64,000 nt of DNA from a virus (taxonomy: Duplodnaviria; Heunggongvirae; Uroviricota; Caudoviricetes; Crassvirales), in the IMG/VR virus record IMGVR_UViG_3300022894_000002, positions 36,490-100,489 of that record; one strand, 5' to 3'. Numbering within the stretch: the stretch's first letter is position 1; each line of letters begins with the position of its first letter. Under the pieces are notes generated by a model. That model made no database searches. It was not told where the DNA came from and saw nothing but the letters and a program-made list of their open reading frames with translations. The position numbers and the translations under genes were made by a program. Positions 18,937 to 21,883 of the stretch are shown here, in pieces.

Positions 18937-19611
18937 TTAATTTGTTTATTAATTATACTGTAAAGATATAACATTATTTGTTATAAAACAAATTTATTTT
19001 CTAAGTAATTGAAAATCAGAAAGATTAATTTTATATTTATTTAATTAATAAACATAACAAGGTTCCCTTAGAAATTCTAAAGTACCTTAATTTTAAAATT
19101 ATCTTGATTTAAAAGTGTCTGGAGATGAGATCTCTGTACCTTCCTGAGTAGCTTTACCTGCTTTATTAATCTCAGCAATTAAATCTTGTATAATTTAAAG
19201 ATCTTATTATCTATTTGATAAGTTTACCTTTCGTTAGTCCTCTTATTTTAAGCCTTGTTAAATCTTAATTCCTTAAAAGGTTATTAACTGAGTACAAATA
19301 TAGGAATAAGATTTGAGAAAAACAAATTTATTTTAAATTATTTTCTATATTTTGGCAATTTTATTAAATTAGTGCCAGATTATAGTAAAGTTTCTATCAG
19401 TTATAGCTAAAGTGTGAAAATTAGACTAAAATTCCTATAAACTTAGGTAGATAAAAATAAATTTTTTAAAAATTTTTTGTAAATAATTGTTTTATAGGTG
19501 TTTAAATGGATTCCCCCACCTAACTCTATACCCTAACCAAGTTATAGGAAGGAAAGTACCCCTAACAAGTTTGCAATCCATTAATTAATTAACACTAAAA
19601 AACCATCAATC

Positions 19612-19872
19612 ATGAAATTTGTTAAAACACACTCTATTATTGAGTTTAAAGAATTGAGTAAATCAACAACACTTGACGTTGTTAAGAATCCACATACTGA
19701 TAAGATATTCTTTACTTGTGGTACTAACTCAGGTAAGGTATCTAAGAAAGGTTATGCTAAACCTGTTGTTAGTTTGTGTGAAGTAGATAAACCTGAAGAC
19801 GGAGGAACTATTGGAGAACAGTTCTACATGCTTCATTCAGCTTCTGAAACTAATGTTATAGCAACATTATAA
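19612..19872 (+). CDS. Hypothetical protein (first gene of the plus-strand arm)
   Basis: 86-aa ORF followed by a hairpin. Confidence 0.4.
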   Translation: MKFVKTHSIIEFKELSKSTTLDVVKNPHTDKIFFTCGTNSGKVSKKGYAKPVVSLCEVDKPEDGGTIGEQFYMLHSASETNVIATL

Positions 19873-19877
19873 CACTA

Positions 19878-19909
19878 ATAACTCTTGACTGTAACAGGTT
19901 GAGAGTTAT
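19878..19909 (+). terminator. Hairpin (8-bp stem ataactct/agagttat, 16-nt loop) downstream of 19612..19872
   Basis: Inverted repeat read directly from the sequence, followed by tatttaaac. Confidence 0.4.
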
Positions 19910-20057
19910 TATTTAAACTATTGTCCAGTATAACAGGCAGCTAATATTAACATAGGTTAATCACTTAGTTATGGCGTCATTAGACTTAATATCCATGTGT
20001 TAAGGTTTGTATCCTTACAATAGTTTATTTCAATTATTAATCTTAAATTAAATAACA

Positions 20058-20189
20058 ATGATAAGTAAAGAAATTAGACAAGAAATAAAAGAAATGGCTA
20101 AACATGCTATAATTATTTTAATAGTATTTATAGCATGTTTATTAATTGCTCAAACATTATTTAATTATTATAACCATTTAAAGCCTTAA
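20058..20189 (+). CDS. Small transmembrane peptide (43 aa)
   Basis: MISKEIRQEIKEMAKHAIIILIVFIACLLIAQTLFNYYNHLKP. The start context aaataacaATG is the same as real genes in this window. Confidence 0.35.
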   Translation: MISKEIRQEIKEMAKHAIIILIVFIACLLIAQTLFNYYNHLKP

Positions 20190-20450
20190 ATCCTACAACT
20201 ATTAATAGTAGTTGTAGGTTAATAATGTACCATAACTCAATTCCCAAGGTTGAGCAATTGTAATAGAGTAACAACAGAGTACTTAAATGGAAGCCTTATT
20301 GAAGGACAGCTATTACAATTGAGTACAGAGGGATAATTATAATATTGGTTAATGATTAAAATATCATTTGAGTTCAAAAACATCTAACAACCTGAACTAT
20401 TATAATTAAATTTAATTAAACTAATTACTAACCAATTAATAACTAAAACA

Positions 20451-20585
20451 ATGAAACAAGAATTCTTTACAATAACTACATTTAAATCAATAACTAAATC
20501 TCAATTAAAACTTGATTTACAACATGAAGGATATACTAATATCAGATATTCAGGTAAATTAAGAGGATTTTATGCTGAGAAATAA
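20451..20585 (+). CDS. Small basic peptide (44 aa)
   Basis: MKQEFFTITTFKSITKSQLKLDLQHEGYTNIRYSGKLRGFYAEK. Start context aactaaaacaATG. Confidence 0.3.
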   Translation: MKQEFFTITTFKSITKSQLKLDLQHEGYTNIRYSGKLRGFYAEK

Positions 20586-21688
20586 CAATATTAAACTAAC
20601 TTAGGACAAGGTGTAATCTTGTTTAAACTCACAACCTAAGTTTGTTTAACTTATTAAACTCTAATCACTGCTTAATGAATAATTGCTTTAGTCTGGCTAA
20701 TTCCCAAACTTATACTGATTATTTAAGTGGAATTAACCACTTGTTAGAGTTTAAATTTATTAAATTATTTAGTGTATAGTGGAGAACTTATGAAAATAAG
20801 AATAAGGTGTAACCAATAAATCCTTAACTGTATGCTAAATAGTTTTAACTTATTAAATTAAATCAATACCTATCCAATTTGTTGGAACTAATACAAGTGG
20901 ATGCTTATGGAGAAAAGTTATTTAACTGCTGGTAAGGGAACCATATTCTTCAAGAATAACAGTCTTGTAGGTATTGATTTTATTAAGATATAAATAGTTA
21001 GTTATTTCATTGATCTGATTTTGTCTAACTATTATAATAATACTCTAATTGACCTTTGAAGCTAGGGAACATAAGATTGACAAATTAAATCAAAGCCTGT
21101 GTAGTTTATCTACAAAGTTTGTCACAATTAGAGTATTTATTAAAATATATGGGAGGAAAGTGCAACAATTTTAGAAGATATAAACAATAATTTGCAAATA
21201 AAAGTTTAAAAGTGCTAAAAGATAGGTCTTGGGATAATTAGTTGAGTACTAGTTAATTATCTTGTGGTTCAATTCCATATCCTTCTACCAATTATTACCT
21301 CCTTGTAATAATAGTAATCCTGCAAGATTACAGTTTAAGTATTAGTTATTATAATTGGGCAAGAATTATAGTAATTAATACTTTTATGAATTAAATATCA
21401 TTCAATAAGTTGATTAATTTAGGTTAATGAATGATAAATCAGTTAATTATATGGAAGGAATAGAAATATTAGCCCTACTGTAATATAACTAATTGATTAT
21501 TAGTGTTTTATTTAGAGATAAGAGAGTACCACTTATTCTAACCTACAATTAATCGCTTGCATAATTACCACAAATTACCTAAAATAAACCTATTATATAG
21601 CTAAACTTATGAATAATAACTATTTTTATACTATCTTTAAAAAATATGTATATATACCAAAATATTGGTATTTTAATAACAAATAACA

Positions 21689-21868
21689 ATGACAATACTA
21701 CTAATAATTCTATCAATACTAATAATACTAGCATTTTATTGTGCTTATAAAGCATATATTACAGAAGATAATTTTGATTTCAATATATTATTAATACTCT
21801 TATTATTAGAAATACTATTATTAATAGGGGGTATTGCAATTGAATTAAACTACATAATAATTAACTAA
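21689..21868 (+). CDS. Small two-helix membrane peptide (59 aa)
   Basis: MTILLIILSILIILAFYCAYKAYITEDNFDFNILLILLLLEILLLIGGIAIELNYIIIN. Start context aaataacaATG. Just under the ORF-track length cut-off. Confidence 0.4.
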   Translation: MTILLIILSILIILAFYCAYKAYITEDNFDFNILLILLLLEILLLIGGIAIELNYIIIN

Positions 21869-21883
21869 TCTAACAACTAAACT

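What the first reader, a model, noticed from the sequence alone, without database searches (positions are those of the whole stretch)
18937..21883. A ~2.9 kb almost ORF-free hub between the divergent structural and early arms, rich in long-range inverted repeats
In an otherwise tightly packed genome, this stretch has only one 86-aa ORF and three tiny peptide ORFs.

It contains several perfect long-range inverted repeats that would enclose 50-100-nt domains:
- caattgtaatag / ctattacaattg near 20256 and 20312.
- atcaatacctat / ataggtattgat near 20872 and 20969.
- The hairpin gtaatc-ctgcaa-gattac near 21313.

It also holds a tRNA 3'-end-like element (see separate finding).

Candidate functions are a replication origin and divergent early/late promoter region, or one or more large structured non-coding RNAs. 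Giant ncRNAs such as GOLLD and ROOL are known from phages and are often adjacent to tRNAs.
Basis: seen in the sequence. Interest (0 to 1): 0.6.

Follow-up and report, generated by a model that had tools for sequence, protein, structure and literature searches.

The report
Twister-type ribozyme in phage hub
The gene-poor stretch between the two arms of this crAss-like phage genome holds a host-type promoter with a conserved leader hairpin, a few tiny genes, and an unannotated variant of the self-cleaving "twister" RNA that sits at the same place in well over a hundred related phage contigs.

Summary
Window 18937-21883 is about 24% coding, no alternative stop-codon reading resolves it, and it has 9 perfect inverted repeats of at least 11 nt against 0.9 expected.

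Three parts are now explained.
- 18937-19611 is conserved at about 70% in five relatives. It carries a Bacteroidota-type promoter (TTTG-N20-TATATTTG, minus strand, 19295-19326) and a covarying hairpin with an invariant loop (19144-19175).
- ORF86, and probably ORF43, are real small genes.

Across 68 distinct core sequences from 117 copies, every helix and both pseudoknots show compensatory changes. The T2 pseudoknot reads CC:GG where twister has GC:GC. No Rfam twister model detects it. It occurs in more than 120 IMG/VR contigs, and in 16 of 16 testable loci it lies divergent from a crAss-like TerL gene, 3.4-8.7 kb away.

There is no GOLLD or ROOL RNA here and no origin signature. Region 20586-21688 is not conserved in any relative found and remains unexplained.

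Verdict: a new variant of a known ribozyme class at a conserved position. Self-cleavage is inferred, not shown.

The parts
18937..19611 (.). Conserved non-coding block ('block A') directly upstream of the first gene of the leftward structural arm (ATG at 18936, minus strand).
   Evidence: It is about 70% identical to L002/L037, L007/L009, L040 and L098, which is as conserved as the neighbouring genes. No ORF is conserved in any frame.
19295..19326 (-). Bacteroidota-type promoter: -33 TTTG (19326-19323), a 20-nt spacer, then -7 TATATTTG (19302-19295). It drives the leftward arm through a leader of roughly 350 nt.
   Evidence: It is one of only four full TTTG-N18-22-TAnnTTTG matches on the minus strand. 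Two of the others sit directly upstream of minus-strand transcription units, at 7423-7453 after the major capsid gene and at 58865-58896. The same extended motif lies upstream of structural genes in L007 and L003.
18985..19000 (-). First copy of the 16-nt repeat AAAATAAATTTGTTTT (minus strand). The second copy is at 19319-19334 and forms the -33 part of the promoter above. This first copy has no good -7 box.
19106..19185 (.). Conserved structured domain. The outer helix pairs 19106-19112 with 19179-19185. Inside it is a hairpin with stem 19144-19148/19171-19175, an inner 3-bp stem 19150-19152/19160-19162, and an invariant 7-nt loop at 19153-19159 (UUUACCU on +, AGGUAAA on -).
   Evidence: The 5-bp stem has four different sequences in five relatives, all complementary. 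The 3-bp stem also has four. This hairpin pattern is found only in this clade among 1.1 Mb of loci, apart from 3-4 likely chance matches. The functional strand is not resolved. If the element is transcribed from the 19295-19326 promoter, it is a leader element on the minus strand.
19612..19872 (+). ORF86, a real small gene and the first gene of the rightward arm.
   Evidence: It is 56% identical over 84 aa to a frame in L098, with E = 3e-26. It has no Pfam match.
19876..19911 (+). Hairpin just after ORF86 (arms 19876-19885 and 19902-19911).
   Evidence: It is conserved at 87-90% in L040 and L098. The local folding z-score is -3.6.
19914..20027 (+). Domain of about 114 nt closed by an inverted repeat. 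The closing helix is directly followed on its 3' side by a T-arm-like hairpin. It may be a decayed tRNA-like element.
   Evidence: The 11-nt perfect repeat is listed and the fold. There is weak similarity to the 3' part of an insert-bearing tRNA in L088. This is not established.
20058..20189 (+). ORF43, a tiny hydrophobic peptide. Translation possibly starts at Met13 (20094).
   Evidence: nhmmer extends the similarity with L087, L088 and L058 upstream of the ribozyme into this ORF. L087 encodes a similar peptide, MSIHTLISITITYSIV... (read). Gene callers of the source collection also called it.
20192..20218 (+). Perfect 12-bp hairpin (CCUACAACUAUU-AAU-AGUAGUUGUAGG) ending 5 nt before the predicted cleavage site. 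It corresponds to the optional P0 stem of twisters and would form the 3'-terminal hairpin of the upstream cleavage product.
   Evidence: Such an upstream hairpin is enriched across 48 distinct copies: 65% have an MFE of -8 kcal/mol or lower, against 12.5% of shuffles, and it ends 0-6 nt from the site.
20217..20338 (+). Twister-type ribozyme variant.
- P1: 20217-20221 with 20334-20338 (weak).
- Predicted cleavage: between U20223 and A20224.
- P2: 20226-20229 with 20324-20327.
- T2: C20230, C20231 with G20249, G20248.
- P4: 20236-20240 with 20250-20254.
- L4 loop: 20241-20249 (UUCCCAAGG).
- P5-like variable stem: 20255-20266 with 20310-20321.
- G20328 corresponds to the catalytic G of twister.
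- T1: U20242-C20245 with G20330-A20333.
   Evidence: The covariance model R1 scores it 92.1 bits, E about 1e-22, and it is the only strong copy in the window. Structure and covariation. The Rfam twister-P1 consensus used for comparison is printed.
20451..20585 (+). ORF44, a tiny gene 117 nt downstream of the ribozyme.
   Evidence: Its leader, TAACCAATTAA...AAAACAATG, resembles the leaders downstream of the ribozyme in L058, L079, L072 and L046. Small ORFs start 19-170 nt after the ribozyme in most loci. No protein homologue was found.
20586..21688 (.). Unexplained 1.1 kb containing a chain of domains closed by inverted repeats.
- 20654-20754.
- 21039-21137.
- Two modules of exactly 93 nt share the arms ACTCTAA/TTAGAGT (20658-20750 and 21042-21134).
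- A degenerate tRNA-like element at 21151/21216-21290.
- Strong hairpins at 21315-21332, 21337-21383 and 21396-21436.
   Evidence: Repeats. The 93-nt modules: with 0.08 expected. Folds: with z down to -6.3. There is no similarity to any of about 167 related loci and no Rfam hit. The four domains are not alike in sequence.
21689..21868 (+). ORF59, a hydrophobic small ORF of uncertain reality.
   Evidence: It was not called in the source collection's annotation.

Best explanation
The hub is the control and leader region between the two transcription arms of a crAss-like (Crassvirales) phage of a Bacteroidota host.

**Left part (18937-19611).** It carries a host-RNA-polymerase promoter (19295-19326, minus strand) that fires leftward into the structural arm. 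The transcript passes through a leader of about 350 nt containing a conserved hairpin with an invariant loop.

**The rest.** It is the start of the rightward (early) arm: a few very small genes (ORF86, ORF43, ORF44) separated by stable RNA hairpins and folded modules.

**The ribozyme.** One module, 20217-20338, is a twister-class self-cleaving ribozyme. It folds into P1-P2-P4 plus a variable P5-like stem and is locked by two pseudoknots, T1 and T2. It is predicted to cut its own transcript between U20223 and A20224.
- The upstream RNA (ORF86-ORF43) would end in a 12-bp hairpin with a 2',3'-cyclic phosphate.
- The downstream RNA (ribozyme body, ORF44 and onward) would carry a 5'-OH and a compact folded 5' end.
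- This would uncouple the stability and expression of the flanking early RNAs, in the manner of a natural insulator or 3'-end-forming device.

**What is shown.** The fold, its covariation, its strand, its conserved position, and the promoter motif.

**What is inferred.** Catalysis, transcription of the + strand, and the biological consequence of cleavage.

The remaining inverted-repeat modules (20586-21688) are fast-evolving and their role is unknown.
For: **Identity of the phage.** TerL, portal and major capsid protein match crAss-type PHROGs. TerL is about 40% identical to Crassvirales genomes.

**Promoter.**. The + arm has almost no such promoters. That fits early transcription by a different polymerase, as shown for phi14:2 (bioRxiv 10.1101/2020.03.07.982082).

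**Leader hairpin covariation.**

**Ribozyme fold.**
- In 56 copies, 97.4% of cells are paired and 19 of 26 pairs carry double changes. No shuffle of 500 and no slid register approaches these values.
- In 68 distinct cores, P4 has 14 different sequences, all complementary.
- T1 is CCC:GGG (58), CCA:UGG (5) or CAC:GUG (4).
- T2 is CC:GG (61), UC:GG (4), UC:GA (1) or CU:GG (1).
- The pseudoknots were not part of the search model, so model fitting cannot have produced them.
- U22 pairs with A or G about equally often. A G-U pair on this strand would be an A-C mismatch on the other, so this fixes the + strand.
- P1 covaries in register.

**Match to twister.** The order of elements and the loop sequences follow the Rfam twister-P1 consensus UAA-P2-GC-[P3]-P4(GUCCCAAGCC)-UAAA-P2'-GAGGG-P1'. 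They also follow the env22 twister sequence (PMC6101554).

**Position.** In 16 of 16 loci with a TerL homologue in reach (21-34% identity, plus L027 at 77%), the ribozyme is divergent from TerL at 3.4-8.7 kb. In the window the distance is 5.0 kb.

**Abundance.** It occurs once in 185,579 bacterial and archaeal genomes.

**Company.** A canonical twister-P1 (48.5 bits) lies 110 nt upstream of a variant copy in L058.
Against: **Against membership or activity.**
- No Rfam twister model reports it at E <= 10, even on 111-141 nt of sequence and even for a 70-nt copy with a minimal P5.
- Two or three positions that are near-invariant in twisters differ. T2 is CC:GG, not GC:GC. The pair closing L4 is usually C-G, not G-C. 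L4 has one extra U.
- Cleavage has not been tested.

**Against a simple functional reading.**
- P1 in the window copy is weak (3 A-U and 2 G-U pairs) and competes with the last two pairs of the P0 hairpin.
- The sequence of P2, P4 and the base of P5 is far more conserved than a ribozyme fold requires. Some other constraint or recent horizontal spread is therefore involved.
- The closest relatives (L002/L037, L009, L040, L098) lack the ribozyme in the sequence available, so it is not indispensable.

**Limits of the data.** No transcript data exist for this phage. About 1.1 kb of the hub is not explained by this account.
Confidence: 0.65

Rival explanations
1. The 20217-20338 element has a twister-like fold but is not catalytic. 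On this reading it serves as a protein-binding or ligand-binding leader element, or as a recognition structure for the phage's own transcription machinery at the start of the early arm.
For: - Several near-invariant twister positions are changed, and the Rfam models do not score it.
- Sequence conservation in P2, P4 and the base of P5 exceeds what the fold needs, as expected if a protein reads the sequence.
- The position relative to TerL is fixed.
- The promoter signals of the crAss-like virion RNA polymerase are unknown.
Against: - All nucleotides implicated in twister catalysis are kept: the A 3' of the cleavage site, the G-A after P2, and the L4 core CCCAA. They are invariant in intact copies.
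- The T2 change is a compensated flip, not a loss.
- Decayed extra copies lose exactly these nucleotides, for example G118 to A in L086 and L080.
Confidence: 0.15
2. The hub is, or contains, the replication origin. On this reading the inverted repeats are DNA-level elements such as cruciforms or initiator binding sites.
For: - Cumulative GC skew has its minimum at about 19-20 kb.
- The region is AT-rich, non-coding and rich in inverted repeats.
- Two 93-nt modules share identical arms, which could be paired protein sites.
Against: - The skew change coincides exactly with the change in gene orientation, so it carries no independent information.
- There are no iterons and no tandem arrays beyond short AT-rich runs.
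- The best repeat is explained by an RNA whose pseudoknots covary, which a DNA cruciform cannot account for.
- Region 20586-21688 is not conserved in relatives, which is unusual for an origin recognised by conserved replication proteins.

An origin could still coexist with the RNA elements.
Confidence: 0.15
3. The unexplained part (19914-20027 and 20586-21688) is a graveyard of decayed tRNA or ncRNA genes and small palindromic insertions, with no present function.
For: - A degenerate tRNA-like element is called only at a relaxed threshold.
- A T-arm-like hairpin adjoins the closing helix at 19914-20027.
- The same region in relatives carries intact tRNAs, insert-bearing tRNAs and a GOLLD-like RNA next to the ribozyme.
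- Decayed ribozyme copies exist in relatives.
- There is no conservation.
- Contigs of relatives often end here.
Against: - The repeats are perfect over 11-13 nt and strongly over-represented, whereas neutral decay would erode them.
- Local folding z-scores of -3 to -6 suggest that the structures are maintained.
Confidence: 0.2
4. The region encodes a giant structured ncRNA (GOLLD, ROOL or similar), or hidden proteins under another genetic code.
For: - A GOLLD-like RNA lies at the equivalent place in L065.
- The phage encodes a tmRNA and tRNAs elsewhere in the window.
Against: - No Rfam match at E <= 10 in 18700-22500.
- No long ORFs under TGA or TAG reassignment.
- No conservation beyond block A, ORF86 and the ribozyme.
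Confidence: 0.04

Closest known systems
Twister self-cleaving ribozyme, type P1 (Rfam RF03160; env22 and Oryza sativa Osa-1-4 twisters)
   Same: - Same order of elements: P1, N^AA, a 4-bp P2, the T2 dinucleotide, a short junction, and the P4 hairpin whose loop (U)UCCCAAG forms both pseudoknots.
- An optional extra stem precedes the 3' strand of P2, followed by G-A, the T1 triplet GGG and the 3' strand of P1.
- The 5' end UUAAUGCA... and the 3' end ...GCAGAGGG resemble env22 (UUAAUGAAGC ... UUCAGAAGGG).
- There is an optional upstream P0 hairpin.
- T1 variants CCA:UGG also occur in a canonical twister in L058.
   Different: - T2 is CC:GG, not the conserved GC:GC (one pair flipped).
- The pair closing L4 is variable (mostly C-G), not the invariant G-C.
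- L4 has one extra U.
- P4 is 5 bp.
- There is no P3.
- There is a long P5-like stem whose first 10-11 bp are conserved in sequence (CAGUUGUAAUA/UAUUACAACUG) and whose interior varies widely in length, giving whole elements of 70 to about 230 nt.
- Rfam twister models do not detect it.
Self-cleaving ribozymes in phage genomes (hammerhead and twister near phage genes; hatchet said to be largely confined to Crassvirales)
   Same: A small nucleolytic ribozyme embedded between short phage genes, sometimes in tandem, with unknown biological role (PMC6765202; bioRxiv 10.64898/2026.03.07.710320).
   Different: This is a different class (twister fold, not hatchet). It sits at a fixed genomic position, at the head of the early arm and divergent from TerL.
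Early long non-coding RNAs of the crAss-like phage phi14:2 (intergenic regions g004-g005 and g005-g006)
   Same: Long ORF-free stretches near the start of the rightward early arm of a crAss-like phage. In phi14:2 they are transcribed early and very abundantly (bioRxiv 10.1101/2020.03.07.982082).
   Different: There is no sequence or model match between the two regions. One of the phi14:2 regions contains a tmRNA-like gene, whereas the window's tmRNA lies elsewhere (35819-36219).
Bacteroidota sigma-A promoters (-33 TTTG / -7 TAnnTTTG) and the middle/late promoters of crAss-like phages
   Same: The motif, the spacing and the location upstream of structural-arm genes all agree. Host-polymerase transcription of middle and late genes is shown for phi14:2.
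   Different: Here it is followed by an unusually long conserved leader with a covarying hairpin. Activity has not been tested.

Membership tests
Twister ribozyme | Helices P1, P2 and P4 in the canonical order around internal loop L1, supported by covariation. | tested here: met
   - P2: 100% paired, 2 of 4 pairs covary.
- P4: 100% paired, 5 of 5 pairs covary, with 14 distinct complementary sequences.
- P1: 2-12 bp in a fixed register with different sequences.

Twister ribozyme | Pseudoknot T1 between the P4 loop and the 3' side of L1. | tested here: met
   CCC:GGG (58), CCA:UGG (5), CAC:GUG (4), with 1 mismatch. A fourth pair is U:A or U:G. T1 was not part of the search model.
Twister ribozyme | Pseudoknot T2 between two bulged L4 nucleotides and a dinucleotide 3' of P2. 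| tested here: met
   CC:GG (61), UC:GG (4), UC:GA (1), CU:GG (1), with 1 mismatch.
Twister ribozyme | Identity of the roughly ten near-invariant nucleotides: the AA 3' of the cleavage site, GC in L2, U-CCxA-A-GC in L4 closed by G-C, and the G-A after P2. | tested here: inconclusive
   Kept: AA, GA, U, CC, A, A and G of L4. Changed: L2 GC to CC, L4 GC to GG, and the closing pair G-C to mostly C-G. There is also one extra U. The comparison is with the Rfam consensus printed and the env22 sequence.
Twister ribozyme | Score at or above the Rfam gathering threshold for RF03160, RF03154 or RF02684. | tested here: not met
   No twister hit even at E <= 10 on window 20205-20345, L027 5235-5345 and L095 1085-1195. 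A canonical twister in L058 scored 48.5 bits in the same kind of search.
Twister ribozyme | Site-specific self-cleavage 5' of the conserved A, giving 2',3'-cyclic phosphate and 5'-OH ends. | not testable with these tools
   The predicted site is U20223^A20224. This needs in vitro transcription or end-specific RNA-seq.
GOLLD / ROOL giant ncRNAs | Match to the Rfam covariance model. | tested here: not met
   No hit in the window at the gathering score or at E <= 10 in 18700-22500. A GOLLD-like hit exists only in the related contig L065.
tRNA (element at 21216-21290) | Cloverleaf recognised by ARAGORN at default settings or by Rfam RF00005. | tested here: not met
   It is called only with ARAGORN -ps90, as tRNA-Leu(gag), with a poor acceptor stem. 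Rfam does not call it. The folding z-score is -0.4.
Phage replication origin | Arrays of direct repeats (iterons) or initiator boxes, plus a strand-asymmetry switch that is independent of gene orientation. | tested here: not met
   Tandem Repeats Finder reports only short AT-rich runs. The only notable direct repeat is the 16-mer promoter element, present twice. The skew switch coincides with the orientation switch.
Bacteroidota sigma-A promoter | -33 TTTG and -7 TAnnTTTG separated by 19-21 nt, upstream of a transcription unit. | tested here: met
   19295-19326 on the minus strand has a 20-nt spacer. Paralogous sites lie upstream of other minus-strand units and of structural genes in relatives. 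Activity has not been tested.

The most novel reading that the evidence does not exclude
The twister-variant is not merely a passive RNA cutter. It would be a conserved 'start-of-early-arm' RNA module of a large clade of crAss-like phages that defines the ends of early non-coding RNAs.

Observations behind this reading:
- In relatives it directly abuts a GOLLD-like RNA (L065) and tRNAs (L054, L068).
- It occurs in same-strand tandem arrays of 2-3 copies spaced 150-300 nt apart.

Such arrays would excise discrete small RNAs with 5'-OH and 2',3'-cyclic-phosphate ends. Those ends are substrates for RtcB-type ligation into circular or repaired RNAs. On this reading the fast-evolving inverted-repeat modules of the window's hub would be the cargo of such a processing system.
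Probability: 0.12. Interest if true: 0.85.

Novelty: new variant of a known kind. Interest (0 to 1): 0.6.

Why it matters
**A biological setting for twister.** Twister ribozymes are well understood chemically but have almost no assigned biology. Here a twister-fold RNA is tied to one defined genomic position: the head of the early arm, divergent from the terminase gene. That position is kept across crAss-like phages whose terminases are only 21-34% identical. It therefore gives a tractable place to ask what self-cleavage is for. Cultured crAss-like phages with transcriptomics already exist.

**A gap in annotation.** Current Rfam twister models miss a family with at least 120 members in IMG/VR, so ribozyme censuses of phage genomes are incomplete. 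The natural compensated flip of pseudoknot T2 (GC:GC to CC:GG) is also a useful data point for structure-function work.

**Annotation of crAss-like genomes.** The long 'empty' region between the arms can now be partly labelled as a host-type promoter with a structured leader, tiny genes, and a ribozyme.

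Tried and rejected
- **Alternative genetic codes.** TGA, TAG and TAA reassignment give no convincing ORFs.
- **Annotated phages.** blastn of the hub against 50,697 records finds no match.
- **Rfam.** The gathering and E <= 10 searches find nothing in the hub. A RAGATH-12 hit at 19.9 bits against a gathering score of 75 was judged to be chance.
- **A small protein in block A.** A peptide-like conserved frame (IAEINKAGKATQ) has no start codon in the window and no conserved frame in relatives. 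It is better explained by the covarying hairpin.
- **Sigma-70 promoters and intrinsic terminators.** Consensus scans show no enrichment: 30 promoter-like sites against 28.5 expected, and 0 terminators.
- **Iterons.** None.
- **More twister copies in the hub.** With filters off, the only further match is an 18-bit hit on the minus strand at 21279-21379. Its loop lacks the L4 consensus, so it was judged doubtful.
- **Homology among the other four inverted-repeat domains.** None, with 49% column identity.
- **The 93-nt module in other loci.** Absent from the 98 loci held at the time.
- **The twister variant in phi14:2.** Absent from the first 9 kb.
- **Homologues of ORF43, ORF44 and ORF59.** tblastn against all loci finds none.
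- **A near-identical contig.** L099 (Logan SRR7967653) is 100% identical and so uninformative.
- **Literature.** Searches by sequence strings and by twister plus crAss or Crassvirales found no description of this element.

Full report
**Context.** The window is a 25% GC genome segment of a crAss-like phage. The large terminase (13145-15181), portal (10519-12765) and major capsid protein (7479-8996), all on the minus strand, match the crAss-type PHROG families. The terminase is about 40% identical to Crassvirales genomes. Genes run leftward up to the ATG at 18936 and rightward from 19612 onward. The finding is the gap between these two arms.

**The observation.** It is correct.
- Only four ATG-initiated ORFs of 43-86 aa lie in 2.9 kb.
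- Reassigning TGA or TAG creates no long ORF. Reassigning TAA only produces noise.
- Perfect inverted repeats with arms of at least 11 nt and loops of 3-150 nt number 9. Markov resamples give 0.9, and 0 of 300 reach 9. The hub holds 9 of the 34 such repeats in the whole 64-kb window.

**Left part: promoter and conserved leader.**
- Relatives recovered through the terminase and a neighbouring protein share a non-coding block equal to window 18937 to about 19560. These are L002/L037, L007/L009, L040 and L098, with terminases 58-85% identical. The block is about 70% identical, as conserved as the adjacent genes.
- It contains a complete Bacteroidota-type promoter on the minus strand, TTTG-N20-TATATTTG at 19295-19326.
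- The same extended motif lies after the capsid gene (7423-7453) and before the minus-strand gene at 58107-58847. It also lies upstream of structural genes in L007 and L003.
- The rightward arm has almost no such motifs. [quoted passage not shown] By inference the same division applies here.
- Downstream of the promoter lies a hairpin at 19144-19175. Its 5-bp and 3-bp stems each take four different, always complementary sequences in five relatives. Its 7-nt loop is invariant and the pattern is specific to this clade.
- A peptide-like conserved frame there has no start codon and is not conserved. The covarying hairpin accounts for the conservation that frame seemed to show.

**Small genes.**
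- ORF86 has a 56%-identical homologue in L098, and the hairpin after it is conserved in L040 and L098.
- The hydrophobic C-terminal part of ORF43 is matched at nucleotide level in L087, L088 and L058.
- ORF44 and ORF59 have no homologues in the loci held.

**The ribozyme: discovery.**
- A single relative, L027, matched window 20219-20354.
- A 20-nt pattern from the conserved core hit 53 IMG/VR contigs.
- A covariance model built from 17 copies finds one strong copy in the window, at 20221-20334 with 92 bits. In total, 117 copies from the related loci and the window were aligned. Many loci carry two or three same-strand copies, and some of these are decayed.

**The ribozyme: architecture.**
- In order it consists of: a short P1; N^AA; a 4-bp helix (UGCA/UGCA); CC; AUAA; and a 5-bp hairpin with loop UUCCCAAGG.
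- Then comes a long stem whose base is conserved and whose interior varies widely in length, giving whole elements of 70 to about 230 nt.
- It ends with AG; the 3' strand of the 4-bp helix; GA; GGG; and the 3' strand of P1.
- This is the order of a type-P1 twister with a P5 stem and no P3. The loop sequences match the Rfam twister-P1 consensus (UAA, GUCCCAAGCC, GAGGG). That consensus was printed when a canonical twister (48.5 bits) turned up 110 nt upstream of a variant copy in L058. They also match the env22 twister (PMC6101554; architecture from PMC5408937).

**The ribozyme: covariation.**
- On 56 copies, 97.4% of cells pair and 19 of 26 pairs show double changes. No shuffle and no slid register comes close.
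- Among 68 distinct cores, P4 has 14 complementary variants.
- T1 is CCC:GGG, CCA:UGG or CAC:GUG. T2 is CC:GG, UC:GG, UC:GA or CU:GG.
- The pseudoknots were not in the model, so fitting cannot have produced them.
- The frequent U-G pairs fix the + strand.
- A stable hairpin just upstream, corresponding to the optional P0 of twisters, is enriched.

**The ribozyme: differences from twister.** T2 is CC:GG, not GC:GC. The pair closing L4 is variable. L4 has one extra U. The Rfam twister models give no hit at E <= 10, even for a 70-nt copy. I therefore file it as a variant of the twister class by architecture, not as a member by the curated models. Catalysis is untested.

**Position and distribution.**
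- In all 16 loci where a terminase homologue (21-34% identical, plus L027 at 77%) lies within reach, the ribozyme is on the opposite strand, 3.4-8.7 kb upstream of the terminase start. This is the same layout as in the window.
- The core pattern occurs once in 185,579 bacterial and archaeal genomes, on a 4.6-kb metagenome-assembled contig. The element is therefore essentially confined to virulent phages.
- The closest relatives of the window lack it in the sequence available.
- In relatives it abuts other RNA genes. A GOLLD-like RNA ends 5 nt before it in L065. tRNAs start 4-5 nt after it in L054 and L068.

**Likely mechanism.** Because a type-P1 twister cuts at its own 5' edge, cleavage between U20223 and A20224 would release the upstream RNA with only a few extra nucleotides after its terminal 12-bp hairpin. 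It would leave the downstream message with a 5'-OH and a compact 5' fold. Roles in processing polycistronic transcripts and in differential stability have been proposed for bacterial and phage ribozymes (PMC6765202). This step is inference.

**What remains unexplained.**
- Region 20586-21688 has no counterpart in any of about 167 loci and no Rfam hit. Yet it is a chain of domains closed by perfect 11-13-nt repeats, with folding z-scores of -2 to -6.
- Two modules of exactly 93 nt share the arms ACTCTAA/TTAGAGT.
- The tRNA-like 3' end belongs to an element that ARAGORN accepts only at a relaxed threshold. An alternative 5' strand, GGGAGGA at 21151-21157, would give a 7-bp acceptor-like stem with a G-U pair at the third position. 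That fold is not better than shuffles.
- Contigs of three relatives end inside or just beyond the hub, which suggests hypervariability.

**Origin hypothesis.** There are no iterons. The skew minimum coincides with the orientation switch. The best repeat is an RNA helix. An origin is neither supported nor excluded.

**Verdict.** The finding is real and partly explained. Its most informative content is a widespread twister-fold ribozyme variant, unannotated by Rfam and absent from the searched literature, at a conserved genomic position in crAss-like phages.

Noticed in passing
L042 (Cellulophaga phage phi14:2, NC_021806) 4031-4502 +: A tmRNA-like gene (Rfam RF00023, 46.0 bits against a gathering score of 47, E = 2.6e-16) lies inside the g005-g006 intergenic region. 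Drobysheva et al. reported that region as an abundant early 'long non-coding RNA' of unknown function.
   Followed up: partly
L065 1635-2020 + (IMGVR_UViG_3300044620_000987): A GOLLD-like RNA (133.7 bits, below the gathering score of 150, E = 4e-35) ends 5 nt before that phage's twister-variant copy at 2025-2149. A tRNA-Met lies upstream at 751-823.
   Followed up: no
L054 3230-3311 (-) and L068 1852-1925 (-): A tRNA gene starts 4-5 nt after the 3' end of the twister variant on the same strand. The ribozyme body would therefore be the tRNA's 5' leader.
   Followed up: no
L088 635-755 (-) and 1002-1117 (-): Two tRNA matches of 116-121 nt lie a few hundred nt upstream of a twister variant. The one whose alignment was printed carries an insertion of about 51 nt in the anticodon-loop region, too short for a group I intron.
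   Followed up: no
L058 855-923 +: A canonical type-P1 twister (48.5 bits, E = 1.4e-8, below the gathering score of 67.2) lies 110 nt upstream of a variant copy. Both twister types therefore coexist in one early region.
   Followed up: partly
L153, L120, L126, L161, L109, L139 and L064 9880-10011: A second sub-variant keeps the 3' half and the UCCCAAGG loop but has a different 5' half (...UUAAUCAGC-UCCCAAGG-GUGAG). It could not be parsed with the main architecture.
   Followed up: no
window 24233-24306 +: A tRNA with a good Rfam score (62.8 bits), for which ARAGORN reports a four-base anticodon 'acgt' and no amino-acid assignment.
   Followed up: no
window 35819-36219 + and 37377-37452 +: A phage-encoded tmRNA (54.8 bits, above the gathering score) and a tRNA-Tyr with anticodon 'ata' that only ARAGORN calls. 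L068 carries a similar tRNA-Tyr(ata).
   Followed up: no
window 20658-20750 and 21042-21134: Two modules of exactly 93 nt have identical closing arms (ACTCTAA...TTAGAGT) but unrelated interiors, 384 nt apart. Chance expectation is 0.08. The pattern is absent from the 98 related loci held at the time.
   Followed up: partly
window 21279-21379 (-): A weak (18.4 bits) match to the twister-variant model on the opposite strand. It overlaps the tRNA-like 3' end and the 21315-21332 hairpin. Its loop lacks the CCCAAG core, so it is either a decayed copy or chance.
   Followed up: partly
L007 positions 1-260, L098 position 1, L040 position 1: Contigs of three relatives end inside or just beyond the hub. 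The end of L007 carries a GC-rich stretch that looks like an assembly artefact. This suggests that the hub is an assembly breakpoint or a hypervariable region.
   Followed up: no
window 16782-17078 (-) and 43088-44260 (+): The gene at 16782-17078 carries a Cpn10/GroES-like annotation (PF00166) in the source collection. The rightward arm encodes an ATP-dependent RNA ligase (PF09414). That enzyme type needs 5'-phosphate and 3'-OH ends, not the ends that a twister leaves.
   Followed up: no
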